Positions 150 to 9,175 of a stretch of 46,880 nucleotides of DNA are shown piece by piece. Within the stretch, counting starts at the first letter, position 1. Every line of letters starts with the position of its first letter. The position numbers and the translations under genes are program-made. Origin of the DNA: Pseudobdellovibrionaceae bacterium (GTDB lineage Bacteria > Bdellovibrionota > Bdellovibrionia > Bdellovibrionales > Bdellovibrionaceae); NCBI GenBank assembly GCA_043779385.1, contig JAYWEU010000297.1, positions 1-46,880 of the forward strand, given 5' to 3'. Below the pieces are notes generated by a model. The model had not been told where the DNA came from and made no database searches. It was given only the letters and a program-made list of their open reading frames with translations.

Positions 150-662
150 CTAGCGCGACTGCCCTAGTTCCATTGTCCAGTAGGTCTTAAAAGTCGAAGA
201 TTCGTAAAAGCCGCAAGCAACGCCGACTTCGCGAAAATGAGGGCTCATGATATTCGCGCAGTGGCCGGGGCTTTTGATCCAACTGTTGATGGCGCTTTCG
301 ACAGTGGCAGGCCCTGCTGAAATATTTTCTCCGGCCGACCGCCAGTTGTATCCAGCCCTTTCCATTCGATCGGTGAAAGGTTTTCCGTCGCGGCTGTCAT
401 GTTCGAAATAATTGTGATGGGCCATATCCATGGAATGCTCGGCCGCGGCTTCAGCAAGTCTTAAATTCCATAGAAGGGCGGTTGCGGCCTTAAAAAATTG
501 AGTTCCGCAGGACCTTGCAGAAGCTCGCGAGGCATTGACTCGGGCCAAGACTTCTTGCTGAAGACCGCTTAATTGACAGTTTTGGGCCGTGGCATAAGCT
601 CTGGAAAAAGTCAGAGCTATCAAAAGAATAAAAAAGCGCTGAACAAACAAAGGACCTCCCAC
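150..662 (-). CDS. secreted CAP/SCP (PR-1 / YkwD-like) domain protein
   Basis: 170-aa ORF with a signal peptide (LIALTFSRAYA|TAQ). CAP-family motifs are visible (HSMDMAHHNYFEH, GENISAG, WIKSPGHCANIM). The track start 662 is GTG. TTG at 650, with GGAGG 4 nt upstream, is an alternative start. Confidence 0.8.
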   Translation of the reverse strand: MGGPLFVQRFFILLIALTFSRAYATAQNCQLSGLQQEVLARVNASRASARSCGTQFFKAATALLWNLRLAEAAAEHSMDMAHHNYFEHDSRDGKPFTDRMERAGYNWRSAGENISAGPATVESAINSWIKSPGHCANIMSPHFREVGVACGFYESSTFKTYWTMELGQSR

Positions 663-783: not shown

Positions 784-1956
784 CTAGCGGAACGCTGCGA
801 TACCGGTGATTTGTTGGCCGACAACAAGTCGATGAATATCTTCAGTGCCCTCATAGGTGTTCACTGTTTCCAAATTCATCATGTGTCGAATCACTGGATA
901 TTCATCGATGATCCCGTTGGCTCCCAACAGATCTCGAGCATCGCGCGCAACATCTAAAGCCATTCGACAATTATTCATTTTCACCAAGGAAACATGGTGA
1001 GGAAGAATTCGACCAGATTCTTTCAAGCGGCCCATTTGTAAAGCAAGCAACTGACCCTTGGTAATTTCCTGCACCATTTTAACCAGCTTCCCTTGTGGAA
1101 GTTGGTAGGCGGCAAGTGGCTTATCCTGTTCAAAAATCACTCGCTCTTTGGAATAATGAAGTGCCGTGTGGTAACAAGCGTTCGCAGCGCCGACAACACC
1201 CCAGGCAATTCCGTAACGAGCTTGCGTCAAGCATCCCAAGGGACCTTTAAGGCCTTCAATATTGGGCAGCATATTTTCTTCTGGAACAAAACAATTTTGC
1301 AGGTGAAGTTCAGAGGTTGTACTGACTCGTAAAGAAAATTTGCCCTTCATGGTGCTGGTCGTAAATCCTTCCATGCCTTTTTCAACAATAAAGCCTTTTA
1401 CTTTTCCATCCAGCTTGGCCCAAACAATCGCGATGTCTGCAATACAACCGTTAGTGATCCACATTTTATTGCCGGTGATTTTATATCCACCTTTCACTTT
1501 TTCAGCACGAGTGAGCATGCCGCCCGGATTTGATCCCGCATCAGGCTCTGTCAAACCAAAGCAGCCAATCAATTCGGCCTTTGCTAGTTTAGACAGATAT
1601 TTTTTCTTCTGAGCTTCGGACCCGTAAGCAAAAATCGGATACATCACTAGGGCGCCTTGCACAGAACAAAAAGAGCGAATGCCCGAATCGGCGCGCTCTA
1701 GTTCTTGCATTAAAAGACCGTAAGAAATATGACCTAAGCCAGGGCAGTCGTAACCTTGAATTGTTGAACCCAGCAGGCCCATCTCAGCAAAGCGCGGAAT
1801 TAAATGTTTGGGAAATTCTTCTTTTCGATTGGCCTCTTGCAAAGTCGGCATCACTTCTTTCGTGACAAAATCGCGAACCGTGTTGCGTACCATCAATTCT
1901 TCTTCAGAAAAAAGAGAATCTTCTTCCATGTAGTTTAAAGACTCATAGACAGCCAT
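784..1956 (-). CDS. gcdH: acyl-CoA dehydrogenase, glutaryl-CoA dehydrogenase-like
   Basis: 390-aa ORF starting at ATG with GAGGAG 5 nt upstream. Motifs GCFGLTEPDAGSNPGGM, MWITNG and the C-terminal NTYEGTEDIHRLVVGQQITGIAAF match, from memory, glutaryl-CoA dehydrogenases better than other ACADs. Confidence 0.8.
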   Translation of the reverse strand: MAVYESLNYMEEDSLFSEEELMVRNTVRDFVTKEVMPTLQEANRKEEFPKHLIPRFAEMGLLGSTIQGYDCPGLGHISYGLLMQELERADSGIRSFCSVQGALVMYPIFAYGSEAQKKKYLSKLAKAELIGCFGLTEPDAGSNPGGMLTRAEKVKGGYKITGNKMWITNGCIADIAIVWAKLDGKVKGFIVEKGMEGFTTSTMKGKFSLRVSTTSELHLQNCFVPEENMLPNIEGLKGPLGCLTQARYGIAWGVVGAANACYHTALHYSKERVIFEQDKPLAAYQLPQGKLVKMVQEITKGQLLALQMGRLKESGRILPHHVSLVKMNNCRMALDVARDARDLLGANGIIDEYPVIRHMMNLETVNTYEGTEDIHRLVVGQQITGIAAFR

Positions 1957-1982
1957 AAATACTCCTCATTGGGGTGCTGTAT

Positions 1983-2011
1983 ATTATCGCAAAGCCTCGG
2001 GATTCTGGCAA
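1983..2011 (-). promoter_or_regulatory. sigma-70-type promoter candidate for the acyl-CoA dehydrogenase
   Basis: Reverse strand reads TTGCCA (2011..2006) - 17 nt - GATAAT (1988..1983). It lies 27 nt upstream of the ATG at 1956. Confidence 0.4.
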
Positions 2012-2078
2012 GTCCAACAGTCGCGCATTGCCAATTTTCAATACTTGACTCAAAGCTGTAAGCTGGCACCTTAGATTG

Positions 2079-4295
2079 ATGTATAACAGAGCAGAAATCG
2101 TCGACGAAAACTTTACAAAATTTGTTAAAGCCAGCCACTTTCCACCGGCCAGGACGCATGTCAATTTGCAGGATTCTGGCTTAAAGTCGACAGAGCTCAT
2201 TGATCTTTTTGAAAGCCAAGTGATCAGTCGACATCTGGATCTAAGGGCCCGCATTTTAAAAAATACCAATCAATGTTTTTACACCATTGGAAGCTCAGGG
2301 CATGAAGGGAACGCCGTCTTTGGAAAAGTTTTTCGAACGACGGATATGGCTTTTTTGCATTATCGCAGTGGGGCTTTGATGATTCAAAGGGCTAAGCAAA
2401 GACCGGGATCAACACCAATTTACGATACCATGCTTTCTTTTGCAGCTTCCAGTGACGAACCGATCGCTGGTGGGCGGCATAAAGTTTTTGGCAGTTTACC
2501 ATTAATGGTTCCTCCGCAAACCAGCACGATTGCCTCGCATCTACCAAAGGCTGTCGGAGCGGCGCTTTCGATCACTCGAGCCCGAGATTTAGGTCATGAC
2601 GGCCTCATGCCGAATGACAGCCTCGTGATCTGTTCTTTCGGAGATGCTTCGGCCAATCACTCGACCGCTTTAGGGGCGATCAATACGGCGGCTTGGACCG
2701 CTTATCAAAAAGTGCGGTTGCCCTTAATTTTTATTTGTGAAGATAACGGTCTTGGAATTTCTGTTTCGACGCCAGCCAGCTGGATTGAAAATAATTTCTC
2801 ATCGAAACCCTCGCTTCAATATTTAAAAGTCGACGGTTTAAATTTATTAGATCTTTATCAAAAGACAAAAGCTTTGGAAGAAATTGTTCGAACCACCCGC
2901 AAGCCGGCCTTCTTACATATGGAAACCGTTCGACTGATGGGGCACGCAGGCTCTGATATGGAATTCGGTTACCATTCTTTAGAAAAAATTGAATCTTTGG
3001 AATTTAACGATCCCCTTCTACATTCGGCTCGTATTATTTTGGAAAATAAATTGTTGTCGCCTGAAGAAATTTTAAAAATGTACGAAGGGGAAAGGGCTCG
3101 GGTTGAACACGTGGGTCTGGCTGCCATTCAGCGACCCAAGCTTTTGAAGCCTGAAGATATTCGCTCGACAGTCATCGCTTGTGTTGAACAAAAAATGGCG
3201 CCGGCTGCGCCCGAAGAATCATTGCGTGAAAAAACTTTTGGCCGCGAGTACGCAAAACTTTCGACGCCTCAACATATGGCAAAGTTAATTAATTATGGTT
3301 TGACGGACTTAATGCTGCGTTATCCTCAGACCATGGTTTTTGGCGAAGATGTCGCGCAAAAAGGCGGCGTTTATAATGTCACTGATGGATTATTTGCTAA
3401 ATTTGGTGCGAAAAGAGTTTTTAATTCTTTATTAGATGAGCAATCCATTCTAGGGGCAGCGATTGGTTTAGCTCATAATGGATTTTTACCGATTCCTGAA
3501 ATTCAATTCCTTGCCTACGTTCATAATGCCGAAGATCAAATCCGAGGCGAAGCCGCCACCTTGGCCTTCTTTTCCAAAGGGCAGTTTACAAACCCCATGG
3601 TGCTGCGGATTGCAGGTCTGCCTTATCAAAAAGGCTTTGGCGGGCATTTTCATAATGATAATTCATTGGCTATTTTTCGCGATATTCCCGGATTAATCAT
3701 CGCAGTTCCTAGCAATGGAATAGATGCCGTAAAAATGATGCGAGCCTGTGTTCGCGAGGCTTATGAAAAAGGCCGCGTGATTGTTTTTATCGAGCCCATT
3801 GCTTTGTATATGACAAAAGATTTACATCAAGTCGATGATAAAGGCTGGACCTTTCCTTACCCTTCAGGCACCGATGAAATCTTGATTGGAGAATTCGGTG
3901 TTTATGGGGATGGAAAAGATCTAACAATATTAACTTATGGGAATGGCTATTATTTTTCTAGGCAGGCTGAAAAAATCCTGAAAGAAAAACACAATGTGCA
4001 TTGTAAAATTATTGATCTACGTTGGATTGCGCCCTTAAATCATCAGGCCCTAGCCGCAGAGCTTGAAAATTCCAAAAATGTTCTGATTGTCGATGAATGT
4101 CGAAAAACCGGATCCCTCAGTGAGGCCTTGGTTGCATCGATGGTGGAAAATATGAAAACGCTTCCTAAAATTAAAGTCATTGCTGCTCATGACTGTTTTA
4201 TTACTTTGGGCGTCGCGGCCGCAGCGGGCTTGCCTTCAAAAGAAGAAATTATTGAAGCCGCCCTTCAAATGAAAGGAATCAAGGTTCCTTCATGA
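2079..4295 (+). CDS. fused 2-oxoacid dehydrogenase E1 component (alpha + beta in one polypeptide), TPP-dependent
   Basis: 739-aa ORF. The track start 2076 is TTG and the first ATG is 2079. The N half carries the TPP motif GDASANHSTALGAINTAAW...ICEDNGLGIS. The C half has transketolase-like beta-subunit motifs (FGEDVAQKGGVYNVT, EQSILGAAIGLA, EIQFLAY). Confidence 0.85.
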   Translation: MYNRAEIVDENFTKFVKASHFPPARTHVNLQDSGLKSTELIDLFESQVISRHLDLRARILKNTNQCFYTIGSSGHEGNAVFGKVFRTTDMAFLHYRSGALMIQRAKQRPGSTPIYDTMLSFAASSDEPIAGGRHKVFGSLPLMVPPQTSTIASHLPKAVGAALSITRARDLGHDGLMPNDSLVICSFGDASANHSTALGAINTAAWTAYQKVRLPLIFICEDNGLGISVSTPASWIENNFSSKPSLQYLKVDGLNLLDLYQKTKALEEIVRTTRKPAFLHMETVRLMGHAGSDMEFGYHSLEKIESLEFNDPLLHSARIILENKLLSPEEILKMYEGERARVEHVGLAAIQRPKLLKPEDIRSTVIACVEQKMAPAAPEESLREKTFGREYAKLSTPQHMAKLINYGLTDLMLRYPQTMVFGEDVAQKGGVYNVTDGLFAKFGAKRVFNSLLDEQSILGAAIGLAHNGFLPIPEIQFLAYVHNAEDQIRGEAATLAFFSKGQFTNPMVLRIAGLPYQKGFGGHFHNDNSLAIFRDIPGLIIAVPSNGIDAVKMMRACVREAYEKGRVIVFIEPIALYMTKDLHQVDDKGWTFPYPSGTDEILIGEFGVYGDGKDLTILTYGNGYYFSRQAEKILKEKHNVHCKIIDLRWIAPLNHQALAAELENSKNVLIVDECRKTGSLSEALVASMVENMKTLPKIKVIAAHDCFITLGVAAAAGLPSKEEIIEAALQMKGIKVPS

Positions 4296-5323
4296 TGACA
4301 AAGCAAGGGGTCAAAAAAGATCGAGTCGTCGTGATCTGTCCAGGGCGCGGGACCTACACCAAAGAAACTTTGGGATATTTAAAAAAGTTTCGACCGGCTT
4401 TCAGCGAATTCCTTAATCTTATGGACGAAAAACGGGCGGCCCTGGGCATGCCAACCTTGAGTGAGCTTGATAACGAGCCCGTCTTTAAACCCCAGATGCA
4501 CACCAAGGGCGAGCACGCCTCGGCGTTAATTTATGCCTGCAGTTATTGTGATTTTTTAAATTTGGATCCTGAAAAATACGAAATTGTCGCGGTCACGGGC
4601 AATTCCATGGGATGGTATATCGCTTTAGCGGTCGCTGGAGTTTTGAATGTTCATGGAGCTTTTGAAGTCATCAATACCATGGGCTCTATGATGAAAGATG
4701 AAATCATCGGTGGACAGATGATTTACCCACTGGTCGATGACAACTGGAGGGTCAAGCAAAGCAATGTTGATCTGGTTCATGCAGCGCTGAAAGAAGTGAA
4801 TTTGCAACCTGACTGCAAAGCTTATATTTCAATCCAATTGGGTGGATATGCGGTGATTGGTGGCCATCAAAAAGCCTTGGATTTTTTATTAAAAAAACTT
4901 CCAAAAATTGAAAACTATCCTTTCCAACTGATCAATCACGCAGCCTTTCATACGCCACTTTTAAAACAGACTTCAGAAAAAGCTCGGCAAATTCTTTCCA
5001 AAGATTTATTTCATCGTCCGCAAATTCCCTTGATTGATGGTCGCGGGCATGTGTGGACTGAATTTGCCACCAGTCGCGATGATATTTACAACTATACTTT
5101 TCAACATCAAGTGATCCAACCTTATGACTTTACAACGGCGATCACCGTTGCCTTAAAAGAGTTTTCTCCTGATCGCTTGGTGCTTTTGGGTCCCGGAAAC
5201 ACATTAGGTGGCGCGATTGGTCAAATTCTTGTGCAAAATAAATGGCTTCAAATCTCTGCCAAAAGCGATTTTATTGAATTACAGAAAGAAAATCCGTTTT
5301 TAATCTCTTTAGGCCGTCCTTAG
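4292..5323 (+). CDS. FabD-like acyltransferase (malonyl-CoA:ACP transacylase superfamily)
   Basis: 343-aa ORF whose ATG overlaps the E1 stop (ATGA at 4292..4295). It has the PGRGTY oxyanion loop, the GNSMG nucleophile elbow and an NHAAFHTP His motif. Confidence 0.75.
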   Translation: MMTKQGVKKDRVVVICPGRGTYTKETLGYLKKFRPAFSEFLNLMDEKRAALGMPTLSELDNEPVFKPQMHTKGEHASALIYACSYCDFLNLDPEKYEIVAVTGNSMGWYIALAVAGVLNVHGAFEVINTMGSMMKDEIIGGQMIYPLVDDNWRVKQSNVDLVHAALKEVNLQPDCKAYISIQLGGYAVIGGHQKALDFLLKKLPKIENYPFQLINHAAFHTPLLKQTSEKARQILSKDLFHRPQIPLIDGRGHVWTEFATSRDDIYNYTFQHQVIQPYDFTTAITVALKEFSPDRLVLLGPGNTLGGAIGQILVQNKWLQISAKSDFIELQKENPFLISLGRP

Positions 5324-5384
5324 ATAAAATCATTCCTGACAGTCTGGTTAATTTTAGCTATATCTGGAGCTTGAAGGTCTATAA

Positions 5385-6167
5385 ATGAATTTATGTTTTG
5401 AAAAAAAGCATTATTGCACCCATTTAAAAAGCTGGAATCTGATAGAGTCTTGCTTATGGCCGTATCTGATTGACGGTCTTCATAAAAATGAAAAAGTTCA
5501 TTACTATACAGATCGATTTACGCCGGTAGAACTTCTGCAATTTTGGCCGCTGTCTTCAGAACAAAAAAATATTTTAGATGCCGCTCTGGCCAACGGAAAT
5601 CTTGAAATTTTTTCTGGTGAACAAGTCTACTTAGTCGATGGTCAATTTAATATCGATGATCGATTGAATTTTGCTAAAATCGCAATCGCTAAGGCCCAAG
5701 CAGAAGGGTTTAGCGGGTTTCGCATCGCTGCTGAAATGGAATGGATTAAAAAGGCGAAGAATGTGAATATTATTGATTTAGTCAGCGATTATGAAATGCG
5801 ATGCAATGACCTTTTTGACTCAAATTTTATCACCTGCCTTTGTATTTATTGCGATGAATCTCTGACCCCTGATTTATGCTTTCGAGCTTTGCACGCTCAT
5901 CCCCAAGTTCACGCTTTGAATCAGACCACGCAAGAAATCTTTAAGAATCCGTTTATGAATAAAAGCGGTCCAGATCCACTTCATGATTTACGGCATTGGA
6001 TTCGCTATTTAAAATCAATGGGACTGAATTGGATCGCTCATGTCGATAGCGGGACCAAAACAAAATTTAAAAGTGATGTTTACCAAAATTTAGCCAAATA
6101 TATTGAGGGCAATGATTTTTCCCAAAAAGGAATTCCTGATATATTCCTTAACATCAGCGCTTTATAG
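5385..6167 (+). CDS. MEDS-like (DcmR-type sensory) domain protein
   Basis: 260-aa ORF with GAAGG upstream. The pattern KVHYYTD ... GFSGFRIAAEMEW ... YEMRCNDLF ... CLCIYCDE ... HAHPQV fits my memory of the MEDS consensus. No HMM was run. Confidence 0.5.
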   Translation: MNLCFEKKHYCTHLKSWNLIESCLWPYLIDGLHKNEKVHYYTDRFTPVELLQFWPLSSEQKNILDAALANGNLEIFSGEQVYLVDGQFNIDDRLNFAKIAIAKAQAEGFSGFRIAAEMEWIKKAKNVNIIDLVSDYEMRCNDLFDSNFITCLCIYCDESLTPDLCFRALHAHPQVHALNQTTQEIFKNPFMNKSGPDPLHDLRHWIRYLKSMGLNWIAHVDSGTKTKFKSDVYQNLAKYIEGNDFSQKGIPDIFLNISAL

Positions 6168-6175
6168 GAATTCGA

Positions 6176-7441
6176 ATGAATTCAACTCATCAAAGAATCC
6201 TTTTGATTGGCGGCGGCCATACGCACTGCTTGGTTCTAAAAAACTGGCGGGCCAAAGACCTTAAGGGCGTTCATCTGACTTTAATTTCTGAGACCGCGGC
6301 TTCACCCTATAGCGGGATGTTAACTGGATTTATTTCGGGAGCTTACACCGATCAACAGATTCATATTTCACTCTTGCCGCTGATCAAAAAATTCAATGGT
6401 GAATTTGTGCAGGACTCTGTTGTAGATATTGATTTCAAAAATCAGAAAGTACTGACTAAAAACGGCCAAGAGCTGACATTTGATATTCTTTCGATCAATA
6501 CGGGTTCGATTCCACAATCGCAAGGAATGATGGGCGCTCAGAATTATTCTGTTCCGATAAAACCGATCAAATCATTTCAAGCTAGGTTCACCGAATTTCT
6601 GAAAAAAGCGAGCGTTGAAAGCCAGTCGCGATCCCTCGTCGTGATTGGGGCTGGTGTTGCAGGCATCGAATGTTCCCTGGCTTTTGAAAGTCGGTCTCGA
6701 CACTTGGGTGTTAATTCTGAAATTCACTTGATCGAAGCCTCAGAAAATTTTTTGCCGGGATTTCCAAAAGGGGCTCAAGAAAATATTTCTGATTTGTTAG
6801 CTGGCCGTAGGATTCATTTGCATCTTGGAAAAAAGGTCACTGAAATCACGTCCGAAGAAGTAATTTTTTCAGACAAAACTAAATTGAAGACGGACTTTAC
6901 TGTTTTGACAACGTCGGGCCAACCTGCGCCTTGGATTCAAAATTTGAAACTGAAGCATCATGGACCATTTATTCAAATCAACAAGTTTTTAGAAACGTCT
7001 GAAAGCCAAGTTTTTGCGGCGGGTGATGTGGCCCAGAATCCTGACAAGCCAGTTCCACGGGCGGGTGTTTTTGCGGTTCGCGAAGCTAAAGTTCTTGCGC
7101 ACAATATTCAAGCCCTTCTTGGGGGTACGGCCAAGACCGCTTTTTTACCTCAAAAAGATTTTTTGAGCTTAATTTCTGATGGCGACGGTAAATGCACAGC
7201 GATCAAGGGATCTTGGTTTTTTTCCAATTCTAAATTAATGTGGATTTTAAAAGATTTTATTGATCGAAAATTTGTGCGTCAGTTTGATTCCTTAGGATCA
7301 AATTTTATAAAAACAGCGGACAAACGCTACCTGCAATCCATGTTTCTATTAACTTGGATTTGTTTATCATATTCTGATGGTTTTTTTAGGACAAAGTCTT
7401 TAGGCTGTGCGGCGGCTTTAATCATCTTAAGCCTGATTTAG
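6176..7441 (+). CDS. FAD-dependent pyridine nucleotide-disulfide oxidoreductase (NDH-2-like; type found fused to SelD in other bacteria)
   Basis: 421-aa ORF with AGGA upstream. It has two dinucleotide-binding motifs (ILLIGGGHTH and VVIGAGVAGIE) and the FAAGDVA motif. The N-terminal block HLTLISE..SPYSGMLTG..., and the DILSINTGS block further downstream, resemble the oxidoreductase half of oxidoreductase-SelD fusion proteins. Confidence 0.75.
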   Translation: MNSTHQRILLIGGGHTHCLVLKNWRAKDLKGVHLTLISETAASPYSGMLTGFISGAYTDQQIHISLLPLIKKFNGEFVQDSVVDIDFKNQKVLTKNGQELTFDILSINTGSIPQSQGMMGAQNYSVPIKPIKSFQARFTEFLKKASVESQSRSLVVIGAGVAGIECSLAFESRSRHLGVNSEIHLIEASENFLPGFPKGAQENISDLLAGRRIHLHLGKKVTEITSEEVIFSDKTKLKTDFTVLTTSGQPAPWIQNLKLKHHGPFIQINKFLETSESQVFAAGDVAQNPDKPVPRAGVFAVREAKVLAHNIQALLGGTAKTAFLPQKDFLSLISDGDGKCTAIKGSWFFSNSKLMWILKDFIDRKFVRQFDSLGSNFIKTADKRYLQSMFLLTWICLSYSDGFFRTKSLGCAAALIILSLI

Positions 7442-7640
7442 CTGCTAAAACCAGCCATGGCAACAGATGGTAGACAAAATCAAAATAATCCAAGAGGCTT
7501 AGAGGCTGCCCTGCCGAGAGACGATGAACGTGTTTCCAAAGATGAGGTGGGGAGAAGGGGGCTAACCCCAAGGTTAAAGCCCCAGCGAAGACCACCCACC
7601 AGGAAAGCGTATTTAAATAGAGGTTCAATTTAGATAACAT
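7422..7640 (-). CDS. small two-TM membrane protein, unknown function
   Basis: 72-aa ORF with two hydrophobic segments. It overlaps the 3' end of the preceding gene convergently by 20 nt. No family recognised. Confidence 0.4.
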   Translation of the reverse strand: MLSKLNLYLNTLSWWVVFAGALTLGLAPFSPPHLWKHVHRLSAGQPLSLLDYFDFVYHLLPWLVLAAKSGLR

Positions 7641-7796
7641 GGGCTGAGTTTATTGAATGTGACTTTTTATGACAAAGGATTTGACGCTCAAAATTGAAAA
7701 ATTATCGACTTCAAAGGACTCACACAAATCTCTTGTTTCAAAATGAGAAATGACCTTTAGAGTTCCTAGACCTTGGCCGAAGAATTAGAGGGGCCA

Positions 7797-8666
7797 ATGA
7801 CATGGGCCGTTCAGAGCTTTAGCCAAAGGAAATGTGTGGATGACGTTAAGACCAGAACGATTCGAAATCCTGAGAACGAGTCTTCGCAAAATTTAGAAGA
7901 AACAATTCTAATTTGCGAGAAAGCAGCCCCCGAAGAGGTTCTGCGTTATGCCTTGGAACGGAATATATCTCAGATCGTGCAGGAGACAAGTCCTCACCAT
8001 GAGATTGAAGTCAAATCATCCATGGCTATGATGGATGCGCCCGCTTCGTTTTTTGATTTTCCTTTGGCCACTATTTTGACTCCTGACAAGGTGACAGTTC
8101 AATCTGAAAAAACCTTGCGCCAGTTAGAAATTCCTTTTTTTAAGTCCGATGAAAAGGAAGCTATTTTAGATTCTATTGGGGAATATATGAGGACTTTGGC
8201 CGGATCGGGAACTTTAGAGTCTGATGTTCGATTAGTTGCCGATGAGCTTTTTACGAATGCGATTTTTAATGCAGGTTTTCAGACAATTCCAGGGGGAGCC
8301 AATCGGGCAGATTCAATCATCTTGGATCAAAAGCAAACTTGTCGCTTGTTGGTAGGATCAAAAGACGACCGGTTGGTTGTCGTTTGTGAAGATTTGTTTG
8401 GGACCCTTAATATTTTAAAGCTTTTGAATCGGATCAGAAAATGTTACGAAGAAGGAGCTCATAACTCGATCACCTGGGATCAGCCAGGAGCCGGAATCGG
8501 CAGCTACCTGGTTTTTAAAAGTTGTATGAGCGTTTACTATGCTGTTCAAGAAAATGAGCGAACGATGGTTGCTTGTGTTTTTCCTTTACGAAAAGGGATG
8601 AGGGCTCGCTCAGAAATAGGTAAAGGCGTCCACTTTGTGAATGTCTCAAAAAAGGATAAAGCATGA
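7797..8666 (+). CDS. RsbW/SpoIIAB-like HATPase-domain protein (putative anti-sigma serine kinase)
   Basis: The ORF opens at TTG 7773, but ATG 7797 has AGAGGGG 3-4 nt upstream. The C-terminal half has an N-box-like ADELFTNAIFNA, a G1-like CEDLFGTLN and a G2-like GAGIGSYL. The N-terminal ~150 aa are unassigned. Confidence 0.55.
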   Translation: MTWAVQSFSQRKCVDDVKTRTIRNPENESSQNLEETILICEKAAPEEVLRYALERNISQIVQETSPHHEIEVKSSMAMMDAPASFFDFPLATILTPDKVTVQSEKTLRQLEIPFFKSDEKEAILDSIGEYMRTLAGSGTLESDVRLVADELFTNAIFNAGFQTIPGGANRADSIILDQKQTCRLLVGSKDDRLVVVCEDLFGTLNILKLLNRIRKCYEEGAHNSITWDQPGAGIGSYLVFKSCMSVYYAVQENERTMVACVFPLRKGMRARSEIGKGVHFVNVSKKDKA

Positions 8667-9175
8667 ATCCGTTTAAATCCTCGCAATTGACAAATAATAA
8701 AACCCTCCACCTCACTTTAGAGGGCGAGATTCAGGGCAGCTGCCAGCTGCCCGAACTTGATATGAATGGAATGACTGAGTTGGATATGGATGTCGGCAAA
8801 GTCACCTACATTAACTCAGGTGGCATTCGAAATTGGATCGTTTGGATGGTGCAATTGAGTAAAAATTTTCCTGCTGTTGATATCGTTTTTCGAGAACTCC
8901 CACCCATCTTGGTCAGTCAAATTACCAATGTCGATTCGTTTATTCCAAAAAAATCAAAAATTAAATCGGTCTATATTCCTTTTTTCTGTGATCACTGTGG
9001 TGCCACAGCCACACGATTATTTGAGCCCGAAAAATACTTTGAGCAGTCCAAGTCGAAAGAAGAAATTTTGGCCATGATGTGCGACATGACTTGTCCCCAA
9101 TGCGCAAAGCCCATGGAAATGGACGCCTTTCCTGAAAAGTACCTTACCTGCCTAGAGCAACATCGCGGAAATTAA
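8663..9175 (+). CDS. STAS-like anti-sigma-antagonist domain fused to a C-terminal Cys4 zinc ribbon
   Basis: 170-aa ORF whose ATG overlaps the upstream stop (ATGA 8663..8666). VTYINSGGIRNWI resembles the STAS phospho-Ser loop (the F-I-D-S-S-G-L class), with Ser52. The C-terminus has CDHC...CPQC. Confidence 0.55.
   Translation: MNPFKSSQLTNNKTLHLTLEGEIQGSCQLPELDMNGMTELDMDVGKVTYINSGGIRNWIVWMVQLSKNFPAVDIVFRELPPILVSQITNVDSFIPKKSKIKSVYIPFFCDHCGATATRLFEPEKYFEQSKSKEEILAMMCDMTCPQCAKPMEMDAFPEKYLTCLEQHRGN

What the first reader, a model, noticed from the sequence alone, without database searches (positions are those of the whole stretch)
2079..5323. Fused E1-alpha/beta TPP dehydrogenase translationally coupled to a FabD-like acyltransferase, with no E2/E3: candidate non-canonical 2-oxoacid-to-acyl-carrier module
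Seen in the sequence:
- One 739-aa polypeptide carries both halves of a 2-oxoacid dehydrogenase E1 (TPP motif GDASANH...EDNG, then a transketolase-like beta half).
- Its TGA overlaps the ATG of the next ORF (ATGA, 4292-4295).
- That ORF has acyltransferase hallmarks: a PGRG oxyanion loop, a GNSMG nucleophile elbow and an AAFH His motif.
- Aligned by eye to E. coli FabD (GHSLGE ... R117 at Ser+25), the residue at Ser+25 is Met (GNSMGWYIALAVAGVLNVHGAFEVINTM). The Arg that binds the malonyl carboxylate therefore appears absent, which argues for a non-carboxylated acyl substrate.
- No lipoyl-E2 or E3 gene lies anywhere in the 47 kb.
- The same-strand neighbours are a MEDS-like protein and a pyridine-nucleotide-disulfide oxidoreductase-fold flavoprotein (6176-7441).
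- The unit is divergently transcribed from a glutaryl-CoA-dehydrogenase-like ACAD.

Inference: decarboxylation by E1 may be coupled to acyl transfer by an alpha/beta-hydrolase acyltransferase rather than a lipoyl swinging arm, possibly with the flavoprotein as oxidant. I do not know of a characterised example. This is my best candidate for an undescribed system in the window.
Basis: partly seen in the sequence, partly recalled or inferred. Interest (0 to 1): 0.7.

Follow-up and report, generated by a model that had tools for sequence, protein, structure and literature searches.

The report
E1–acyltransferase pair for 2-oxoadipate breakdown
A fused thiamine-dependent E1 enzyme, a FabD-like acyltransferase locked to it and a glutaryl-CoA dehydrogenase form a three-gene unit kept from predatory bacteria to marine algae; it probably burns the lysine breakdown product 2-oxoadipate, using an acyltransferase of a kind never described in such enzyme systems.

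Summary
Every sequence-level observation was reproduced. These are the 739-aa E1 alpha/beta fusion, the ATGA overlap with a 343-aa FabD-fold protein, Met at the FabD Arg117 position, no E2/E3 in the window, and a divergent acyl-CoA dehydrogenase.

New evidence changes the picture.
- E1 lies directly upstream of the acyltransferase (AT) in 83 of 84 related loci from several phyla.
- In marine eukaryotic contigs the two are fused into one protein.
- The dehydrogenase is a true glutaryl-CoA dehydrogenase (GCDH) and sits beside the pair in 45 of 51 complete loci.
- Other lineage-specific neighbours also handle 2-oxoadipate or glutarate.
- The MEDS and flavoprotein genes are not conserved with the pair.
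- E1 keeps both histidines used to acylate lipoate.

Most likely this is a 2-oxoadipate -> glutaryl-CoA -> crotonyl-CoA module. E1 loads glutaryl onto a lipoyl group borrowed from another complex. The AT then passes it to CoA, standing in for an E2 catalytic core. The AT role is inferred, not shown.

I found no published description of this pairing. Verdict: real, conserved, probably a new variant of a 2-oxoacid dehydrogenase system.

The parts
784..1956 (-). Glutaryl-CoA dehydrogenase (GCDH) orthologue, transcribed divergently from E1.
   Evidence: It has the three ACAD Pfam domains. phmmer gives E=3e-129 to human GCDH 1siq over residues 16-389. The ELERxDSGxRS arginine and the YEGT glutamate are aligned and kept. 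An orthologue lies beside the E1-AT pair in 45 of 51 loci that have enough flank, in three different arrangements.
1957..2075 (.). 119-bp divergent intergenic region between GCDH and E1, the presumed shared control region.
   Evidence: One sigma-70-like match on the minus strand (2011-1983, 10 of 12) could serve GCDH. The scan as a whole is not above chance, so this is only a placement.
2076..4295 (+). Fused E1 alpha/beta thiamine-diphosphate enzyme, the proposed 2-oxoadipate-specific E1. The true start may be ATG 2079.
   Evidence: Pfam finds E1_dh, Transket_pyr and Transketolase_C. The beta half matches Geobacillus PDH E1 beta at E=2e-41; the alpha half matches PDH/BCKDH E1 alpha only at about 1e-13. 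The following are invariant in 72 family members: G189, D190 and N224 (ThDP-Mg motif); Glu455 (= E59 beta); His290 (= H271 alpha); His526 (= H128 beta); and His95-Tyr96, with Arg97 kept in 71 of 72 (the exception is an X).
4292..5323 (+). FabD-fold acyltransferase of a distinct family, translationally coupled to E1. Proposed glutaryl transferase.
   Evidence: The ATGA overlap is. The AlphaFold model has pLDDT 96.4 and its best Foldseek matches are FabD/MCAT structures. Ser105 and His220 are invariant. Arg19, Arg48, Asn104, Gln142 and Asp249 are nearly invariant. Met130 sits at the FabD Arg117 position. The family has 122 representative clusters at E<1e-30. E1 lies directly upstream in 83 of 84 loci.

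Best explanation
The unit is three genes: GCDH, the E1 alpha/beta fusion and the FabD-fold acyltransferase (AT). Together they form a catabolic module for 2-oxoadipate, the common intermediate of lysine and tryptophan breakdown.

Step 1 (inferred from residues and context). E1 decarboxylates 2-oxoadipate on thiamine diphosphate. It then reductively transfers the glutaryl group to a lipoyl-lysine. That lipoyl group is not encoded in the module and is borrowed from a housekeeping E2, with E3 also supplied in trans.

Step 2 (inferred). The AT works in complex with E1, or fused to it. It takes glutaryl onto Ser105 and passes it to CoA. In this it does the job of an E2 catalytic core with an unrelated fold.

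Step 3 (well supported by homology). GCDH converts glutaryl-CoA to crotonyl-CoA and CO2.

Shown here: the gene trio, its conservation, the fusion and the catalytic residues. Inferred: the substrate, the lipoyl donor and the direction of acyl transfer.
For: E1-AT linkage:
- E1 is directly upstream of AT in 83 of 84 loci. These come from Bdellovibrionota, Oligoflexus, Marinimicrobia/Fidelibacterota, Alteromonadales, Oceanospirillales-type and Alphaproteobacteria.
- A candidate AT start overlaps the E1 stop by 4 nt in 36 of 83 loci and by 8 nt in 23.
- E1 beta-AT single-chain fusions occur in three distinct eukaryote-type proteins. In the contigs fetched for one of them (P0362), a GCDH-like gene lies divergently next door.

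The 2-oxoadipate/glutaryl theme:
- The neighbour is a true GCDH, present in 45 of 51 complete loci in three arrangements.
- An HglS/DUF1338 2-oxoadipate dioxygenase/decarboxylase gene lies next to AT in L082, L052 and L073.
- A homocitrate-synthase-like gene lies between AT and GCDH in 8 Marinimicrobia loci.
- A family III CoA-transferase is nearby in 3 loci.
- A divergent LysR regulator is present in 24 loci.

E1 competence for lipoate: H128 beta and H271 alpha equivalents, E59 beta and the Mg/ThDP motif are invariant in 72 copies. PMC2663715 states that His is kept at the H128 beta position in all known E1s and acts in reductive acetylation.

AT competence: the Ser-His dyad is invariant and the fold is FabD-like.

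The three conserved genes then make three consecutive steps, with nothing else conserved.

Precedent for E1 plus acyltransferase using lipoyl groups in trans: actinobacterial OdhA (PMC10415282).
Against: - There is no biochemical or genetic datum for any member. Five literature searches found none.
- No FabD-fold enzyme is known to me to use a dihydrolipoyl thioester as donor (from my own knowledge).
- The lipoyl carrier and E3 could not be looked for in the same genomes.
- If a housekeeping E2 binds this E1, its own catalytic core might do the transfer and leave the AT without this role.
- The substrate assignment rests on gene neighbourhood only.
- Six of 51 complete loci lack a GCDH nearby.
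Confidence: 0.45

Rival explanations
1. Conventional complex plus an accessory enzyme. The E1 fusion docks on a housekeeping E2 (E2o, E2b or E2p), whose own catalytic core makes glutaryl-CoA. The FabD-like protein does something else with glutaryl thioesters. It might move glutaryl between CoA and an acyl carrier protein, or clear wrongly acylated lipoyl, CoA or ACP thiols by hydrolysis.
For: - E1 keeps all features of a lipoate-dependent E1.
- Human 2-oxoadipate dehydrogenase E1 simply shares E2o and E3 with the 2-oxoglutarate complex (PMC9367764 abstract, listed).
- All characterised FabD-fold relatives found here act between CoA and ACP or as hydrolases.
- Glutaryl-CoA/ACP feeds biotin synthesis in some bacteria (PMC7645780 abstract).
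Against: - An accessory role does not explain why AT is as conserved as E1 itself, why it is translationally coupled, or why it is fused to E1 in eukaryote-type proteins.
- No ACP gene or other small conserved ORF lies near any copy.
- The module pairs with a catabolic GCDH, not with biosynthetic genes.
Confidence: 0.25
2. Acyl transfer is lipoyl-independent. The E1-bound intermediate is oxidised by some other acceptor and the acyl group goes from acyl-ThDP directly to the AT serine, then to CoA or ACP.
For: - No E2, E3, lipoyl-domain or ACP gene lies in the window or in 87 related loci.
- E1 and AT are tightly coupled or fused.
- The alpha half of E1 is very divergent from canonical E1 alpha (about 1e-13).
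Against: - The module contains no conserved oxidant. The flavoprotein and MEDS genes are found only in the window.
- Both histidines tied to lipoate acylation are invariant, whereas ThDP enzymes that do not use lipoate often have Gln or Asn at the beta position (PMC2663715).
- Without an electron acceptor the enamine cannot become an acyl group (established ThDP chemistry).
Confidence: 0.08
3. A different substrate or direction. The E1 acts on another 2-oxo acid (2-oxoglutarate, 2-oxopimelate or a sulfur- or branched-chain oxo acid), or works as a carboligase. On this view the GCDH neighbour reflects a looser metabolic link.
For: - Substrate specificity was not tested.
- JGI pipelines call the E1 '2-oxoisovalerate dehydrogenase E1'.
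- Six complete loci lack GCDH.
- The alpha half is too divergent for specificity to be read from known structures.
Against: Four independent kinds of neighbour all handle 2-oxoadipate or glutarate/glutaryl-CoA: GCDH, HglS, a homocitrate-synthase-like gene and a family III CoA-transferase. The '2-oxoisovalerate' name is only a best-hit transfer, and NCBIfam scores are far below every equivalog cut-off.
Confidence: 0.12

Closest known systems
2-oxoadipate dehydrogenase complex of animals (DHTKD1 E1a + DLST E2o + DLD E3)
   Same: The proposed overall reaction is the same (2-oxoadipate -> glutaryl-CoA) and it feeds GCDH. The E1 has no E2/E3 of its own and uses those of another complex (PMC9367764 and 10.1101/2020.01.20.912931 abstracts, listed).
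   Different: DHTKD1 is a homodimeric OGDH-type E1. Here the E1 is an alpha/beta (PDH/BCKDH-type) fusion. An obligatory FabD-fold partner is present, which has no counterpart in the animal complex.
[quoted passage not shown]
   Same: An E1 is joined to its own acyltransferase, lacks a lipoyl domain and depends on lipoyl groups of another complex's E2 and on a shared E3 (PMC10415282). The gene pair here is likewise a single chain in some eukaryote-type proteins.
   Different: In OdhA the transferase is a canonical E2o catalytic domain fused N-terminally to an E1o. Here it is a FabD-fold Ser-His enzyme placed after an alpha/beta-type E1. Use of lipoyl in trans is shown for OdhA but only inferred here.
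FabD, malonyl-CoA:ACP transacylase (and trans-AT / acyl-hydrolase relatives)
   Same: The fold is the same (TM 0.73-0.83). There is a nucleophile elbow GxSxG with invariant Ser, an invariant His partner and an N-terminal PGxG oxyanion loop.
   Different: - Identity is only 19-20%, and the NCBIfam fabD score is 49 against a cut-off of 260.9.
- Arg117 is replaced by Met, and never by Arg or Lys anywhere in the family.
- Gln11 is replaced by Arg, and GHS by GNS.
- There is an extra conserved C-terminal helix region (W318, K324, F327, Q331).
- The gene context is an E1 and a GCDH, not fatty-acid or polyketide genes.
PDH/BCKDH alpha2beta2 E1 components
   Same: Domain order and all catalytic residues match.
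   Different: The alpha and beta halves are fused. The alpha half is very divergent. The ThDP motif reads GDAS...EDN rather than GDG...NN. No E2/E3 genes lie in the operon, in any of the 87 related loci or in the window.
Pseudomonas putida gcdR-gcdH-gcoT glutarate operon
   Same: A divergent LysR regulator is followed by a GCDH gene and then by genes that supply glutaryl-CoA. In Alteromonadales the order is LysR <-> GCDH-E1-AT. The P. putida regulator is described in PMC6667623 (title and abstract).
   Different: There glutaryl-CoA comes from glutarate through a CoA-transferase. Here that place is taken by E1+AT, which implies a 2-oxo acid as the input. I did not test homology of the LysR proteins to GcdR.

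Membership tests
2-oxoacid dehydrogenase E1, alpha/beta type | E1_dh + Transket_pyr + Transketolase_C domains above the Pfam cut-offs | tested here: met
   Scores are 76.3, 76.3 and 53.6 bits against cut-offs of 22, 27 and 25.9.
2-oxoacid dehydrogenase E1, alpha/beta type | ThDP-Mg motif and the cofactor-activating glutamate | tested here: met
   G189, D190, N224 and E455 are invariant in 72 copies. The motif variant is GDAS...EDN.
2-oxoacid dehydrogenase E1, alpha/beta type | Histidines used for reductive acylation of lipoate (Geobacillus H271 alpha and H128 beta) | tested here: met
   H290 and H526 align to them and are invariant in 72 copies. Their roles are described in PMC2663715.
2-oxoacid dehydrogenase E1, alpha/beta type | Works with a lipoyl-bearing E2 and an E3, usually encoded alongside | tested here: not met
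   No AceF, SucB or Lpd homologue (tblastn E<=1e-3) is found in the window or in 87 related loci totalling 1.46 Mb. Whether such genes lie elsewhere in the same genomes could not be tested.
NCBIfam equivalogs for PDH E1 alpha / E1 beta | Score above the curated cut-off | tested here: not met
   The best scores are 133 bits against a cut-off of 321 (E1 beta subfamily) and 78.6 against 411 (E1 alpha).
FabD (ACP S-malonyltransferase, TIGR00128) | Score above the curated cut-off | tested here: not met
   49.3 bits against a cut-off of 260.9. Pfam Acyl_transf_1 has no hit for the window protein and only weak hits for 13 of 36 family members.
FabD (ACP S-malonyltransferase, TIGR00128) | Arg117, which binds the malonyl carboxylate | tested here: not met
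   Met130 is aligned to it. The column is M/T/L/V/A/I in 36 members.
FabD (ACP S-malonyltransferase, TIGR00128) | Ser-His dyad on a FabD fold | tested here: met
   S105 and H220 are invariant. Foldseek gives TM 0.73-0.83 to FabD structures.
FabD (ACP S-malonyltransferase, TIGR00128) | Transfers an acyl group to an acyl carrier protein | not testable with these tools
   No ACP gene lies near any copy. The activity itself needs an assay.
Glutaryl-CoA dehydrogenase (the neighbour at 784-1956) | Close full-length similarity to characterised GCDH, with the carboxylate-binding Arg and the catalytic Glu | tested here: met
   E=3e-129 to human GCDH. The SGxRS Arg and the YEGT Glu are aligned and kept. 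The only NCBIfam glutaryl-CoA dehydrogenase model among the matches, NF045552 (named GlutCoADH_Des), is not reached: 209 bits against a cut-off of 470.
OdhA-type two-in-one E1-E2 fusion | E2 catalytic (2-oxoacid_dh) domain on the same chain as an E1o | tested here: not met
   There is no 2-oxoacid_dh domain. The partner has a FabD fold and the E1 is of the alpha/beta type. The resemblance is functional only.

The most novel reading that the evidence does not exclude
A widespread family of 2-oxoadipate dehydrogenases, present in at least 594 places in a one-genome-per-species collection and also in marine eukaryote-type contigs, has replaced the E2 catalytic core with an unrelated FabD-fold Ser-His acyltransferase bound or fused to E1. 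It would take acyl groups from a lipoyl arm supplied in trans or, in the most radical form, directly from the E1 active site. That would be the first 2-oxoacid dehydrogenase system whose transacylase is not an E2, and the first FabD-fold enzyme working on a lipoyl thioester.
Probability: 0.35. Interest if true: 0.8.

Novelty: new variant of a known kind. Interest (0 to 1): 0.68.

Why it matters
The 2-oxoacid dehydrogenase complexes are a textbook example of a fixed E1-E2-E3 design. Actinobacterial OdhA was considered notable for merely fusing E1 and E2.

An E1 that is always paired with, or fused to, an acyltransferase of a different fold would be a second and more radical departure. It would show non-homologous replacement of the transacylase step.

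It would also assign a function to two large families that are now labelled '2-oxoisovalerate dehydrogenase E1', 'thiamine pyrophosphate-dependent enzyme', 'ACP S-malonyltransferase' or even 'MFS transporter'. It would fill the 2-oxoadipate -> glutaryl-CoA step of lysine and tryptophan catabolism in many marine and predatory bacteria, and apparently in some algae. And it would offer a compact two-protein route to glutaryl-CoA for engineering.

Culturable carriers exist (Thalassotalea, Colwellia, Shewanella, Zooshikella, Oligoflexus), so the hypothesis can be tested directly.

Tried and rejected
- The 36-sequence alignment A1 was too diverse for the search for related loci. A 9-sequence alignment worked.
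- The MEDS and flavoprotein genes as part of the system: rejected, because they are absent from all related loci.
- A conserved small carrier gene (ACP, lipoyl protein) near the pair: none found among ORFs of 55-135 aa.
- E2/E3 near any copy: none found.
- The apparent 1028-aa E1+AT ORF in L077 is an alternative-frame artefact of a high-GC genome. P0319 looks like a chimeric or deleted assembly. Neither was used as fusion evidence.
- The promoter/terminator scan of 1850-7700 was not above chance and did not define operon ends.
- Five literature searches returned nothing on this pairing.
- I did not attempt an E1+AT complex model. The structure tool returns no coordinates or inter-chain error and accepts only window or database sequences.
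- I considered mapping the residues of E1 beta that bind the E2 peripheral-subunit-binding domain. I dropped this because they are poorly conserved even among canonical E1s, and I could not recall them reliably.


Full report
**1. What is in the window**

The ORF list gives three relevant genes:
- a 739-aa ORF at 2076-4295 on the + strand. It starts at TTG 2076; ATG 2079 is the second codon and may be the real start;
- a 343-aa ORF at 4292-5323 on the + strand;
- a 390-aa ORF at 784-1956 on the - strand.

The bases at 4290-4299 read tcATGAtgac, so the stop of the first ORF overlaps the start of the second.

Pfam finds E1_dh, Transket_pyr and Transketolase_C on the 739-aa protein. It finds nothing on the 343-aa protein. 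The divergent protein has three ACAD domains. The next two + strand genes carry MEDS and Pyr_redox_2.

NCBIfam places the 343-aa protein far below the fabD cut-off (49 against 260.9 bits). It puts the flavoprotein in TIGR03169, a family named for lying N-terminal to SelD.

The closest database relatives of both proteins come from Bdellovibrionota metagenome bins.

**2. The acyltransferase (AT)**

HMMER alignments to solved FabD structures (best E=1e-7) match several features:
- PGRG to the PGQG loop;
- GNSMG to GHSLG;
- AAFH to the FabD His motif;
- Met130 to the malonyl-binding arginine.

An AlphaFold model built on 36 family members is confident (pLDDT 96.4, pTM 0.94). Its best structural matches are FabD/MCAT proteins, with TM 0.73-0.83 at 19-20% identity.

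The family is discrete. A search of 1.84 billion representatives gives 122 clusters at E<1e-30.

Conservation in an alignment of 36 members down to 31% identity:

| Position | State in the family |
|---|---|
| Ser105, His220, Gly250, Gly252, Trp152 | invariant |
| Arg19 (at the place of FabD Gln11) | 35 of 36 |
| Arg48 | 34 of 36 |
| Asp249 | 35 of 36 |
| Arg117-equivalent column | M/T/L/V/A/I, never Arg or Lys |

However, the family does carry a conserved active-site arginine elsewhere. The loss of Arg117 therefore does not argue for a non-carboxylated substrate.

**3. The E1**

The beta half resembles PDH and BCKDH E1 beta well (E=2e-41). The alpha half is remote (about 1e-13).

Alignments to human PDH E1 alpha and to Geobacillus E1 beta place the following:
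- His290 at the GH(S) histidine of the alpha loop;
- His526 at H128 beta;
- Glu455 at E59 beta;
- His95-Tyr96-Arg97 at the Tyr-Arg of BCKDH alpha.

In 72 full-length family members, His290, His526, Glu455, His95 and Tyr96 are invariant, as are the ThDP-Mg motif residues G189, D190 and N224. Arg97 is kept in 71 of 72, the exception being an X.

The Geobacillus study assigns H128 beta to general acid/base catalysis in reductive acetylation of lipoate. It notes that His is kept there in all known E1s, whereas other ThDP enzymes may have Gln or Asn (PMC2663715). By every testable residue this E1 is therefore a lipoate-using E1.

**4. Conservation of the pairing**

I scanned one genome per species for the AT. 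Eighty loci were fetched and four more came from contig look-ups.

tblastn with the window proteins shows an E1 fusion directly upstream of the AT in 83 of 84 loci. The one exception starts inside the AT gene.

The organisms include Bdellovibrionota, Oligoflexus, Marinimicrobia/Fidelibacterota, Colwellia, Thalassotalea, Shewanella, Glaciecola, Pseudoalteromonas, Aestuariirhabdus, Motiliproteus, Nevskia, Micavibrio and other Alphaproteobacteria. Zooshikella carries a homologue of the acyltransferase (AT); its neighbours were not examined.

A candidate AT start overlaps the E1 stop by 4 nt in 36 loci and by 8 nt in 23. In 80 of 83 loci it lies within 30 nt. My choice of start codon favours small gaps, so these numbers are only indicative.

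Neither the MEDS gene nor the flavoprotein gene occurs in any related locus.

**5. The third conserved gene and the pathway theme**

All-against-all clustering of ORFs from the loci finds only three families shared across phyla: AT (84 loci), E1 (83) and the ACAD (59).

Among 51 loci with enough flank on both sides, 45 carry the ACAD:
- upstream on the same strand in 23;
- upstream and divergent in 11;
- downstream in 11.

The ACAD is a glutaryl-CoA dehydrogenase orthologue. It scores E=3e-129 to human GCDH, with the carboxylate-binding Arg and the catalytic Glu aligned.

Lineage-specific neighbours repeat the theme:
- a gene of the HglS/DUF1338 family lies next to the AT in three loci and within 8 kb in two more. 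The Pfam family is named 2-oxoadipate dioxygenase/decarboxylase, and the enzyme is described in 10.1101/450254;
- a gene scoring 405.9 bits against the homocitrate synthase model, whose cut-off is 413.55, lies between AT and GCDH in eight Marinimicrobia loci. By established knowledge, homocitrate synthase is the first enzyme of the route that makes 2-oxoadipate;
- a family III CoA-transferase lies nearby in three loci;
- a divergent LysR regulator is present in 24 gammaproteobacterial loci.

The common metabolite is 2-oxoadipate, or its product glutaryl-CoA.

**6. No E2, E3 or carrier nearby**

tblastn with E. coli AceF, SucB and Lpd gives no hit at E<=1e-3 in the window or in 87 related loci, 1.46 Mb in all. 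Clustering of small ORFs of 55-135 aa shows no conserved ACP-like or lipoyl-protein-like gene.

**7. Fusion proteins**

One representative, P0362, contains the C-terminal part of E1 beta, a Pro/Ser-rich linker and then the AT.

Its contigs have 63-64% GC and carry septin, metacaspase and ART genes, so they are eukaryotic. One comes from a Tara Oceans sample. The E1 exons and the AT are in the same frame, and a GCDH-like gene lies divergently next to them.

Two further proteins, 55-60% identical to P0362, show the same fusion. One of them runs to the AT C-terminus. This is strong evidence that E1 and AT act together physically.

**8. Mechanism**

The three conserved genes can be read as three consecutive steps.
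1. E1 decarboxylates 2-oxoadipate and, as its residues indicate, acylates a lipoyl group.
2. The AT moves glutaryl to CoA through an acyl-Ser105 intermediate.
3. GCDH oxidises and decarboxylates glutaryl-CoA to crotonyl-CoA.

The lipoyl domain and E3 would be borrowed from a housekeeping complex. This has precedent. Animal 2-oxoadipate dehydrogenase borrows E2o and E3 (PMC9367764). Actinobacterial OdhA carries its own transferase domain and uses the lipoyl groups of AceF (PMC10415282).

A dedicated transferase would make sense if the E2 that supplies the lipoyl arm cannot handle a negatively charged C5 acyl group. That point is inference. The conserved Arg19 and Arg48 are candidates for binding the distal carboxylate, which is also inference.

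I give this reading about 0.45. A conventional E2-dependent complex in which the AT has another role with glutaryl thioesters gets about 0.25. Another substrate gets about 0.12.

**9. Comparison with known systems and novelty**

The E1 passes every residue and domain test for an alpha/beta-type E1. It fails the usual context test, because no E2/E3 is encoded alongside. It also scores far below all NCBIfam equivalog cut-offs.

The AT has the FabD fold and dyad but fails the FabD membership tests on score, Arg117 and Gln11.

Five full-text literature searches found no paper that describes an E1 paired with a FabD-like protein, or a bacterial alpha/beta-type 2-oxoadipate E1. Public annotations are generic or wrong: 'ACP S-malonyltransferase', '2-oxoisovalerate dehydrogenase E1 component', 'thiamine pyrophosphate-dependent enzyme' and 'MFS transporter'.

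I rate this a new variant of a known kind of system. It is real and widely conserved, and its key step is still unproven.

Noticed in passing
window 5385-6167 and 6176-7441 (+): A MEDS-domain protein and a TIGR03169 'Nterm_to_SelD' pyridine-nucleotide-disulfide oxidoreductase (368 bits, cut-off 310) follow the AT on the same strand. They occur in none of 87 related loci, so they look like a separate, window-specific pair of unknown role.
   Followed up: partly
L085 6397-9788 (also L086, L087); proteins P0362, P0439, P0440: Marine eukaryotic contigs (63-64% GC; septin, metacaspase and ART genes; one from Tara Oceans) encode the E1 and the AT as one polypeptide, with a GCDH-like gene divergently adjacent. 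The organism was not identified.
   Followed up: partly
L082 11322-12137; L052 11076-11906; L073 11172-12011; L055 17489-18334; L076 18598-19398: HglS/DUF1338 genes (2-oxoadipate dioxygenase/decarboxylase) lie beside or near the E1-AT pair. L082 has no GCDH in the locus. This suggests two alternative fates of 2-oxoadipate encoded together.
   Followed up: partly
L016, L017, L023, L027, L029, L035, L062, L065 (about 0.9-2.1 kb after the AT start): In Marinimicrobia a homocitrate-synthase-like gene (405.9 bits against a cut-off of 413.55) sits between the AT and GCDH. This links a 2-oxoadipate-forming enzyme with 2-oxoadipate-consuming ones.
   Followed up: partly
protein P0195 (NCBI NDE16441.1): A 771-aa E1 alpha/beta fusion of this family is named 'MFS transporter' in its NCBI record, which looks like a misannotation.
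   Followed up: no
protein P0455 (Chromera velia CCMP2878, 805 aa): An alveolate alga has an E1 alpha/beta fusion homologue with the same GGxFH motif. Whether an AT follows it is unknown.
   Followed up: no
window 7773-8666 and 8663-9175 (+): Two + strand ORFs (297 and 170 aa) that overlap by 4 nt have no Pfam match. Their function is unknown.
   Followed up: no
window 150-662 (-): A 170-aa protein with a CAP/SCP domain and a hydrophobic N-terminus, probably secreted, lies next to the GCDH gene.
   Followed up: no
L077 7964-11050: A 1028-aa 'ORF' spans both E1 and AT in a high-GC Nevskia bin. It is an alternative-frame artefact, since the E1 and AT matches are in different frames, and not a fusion.
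   Followed up: yes
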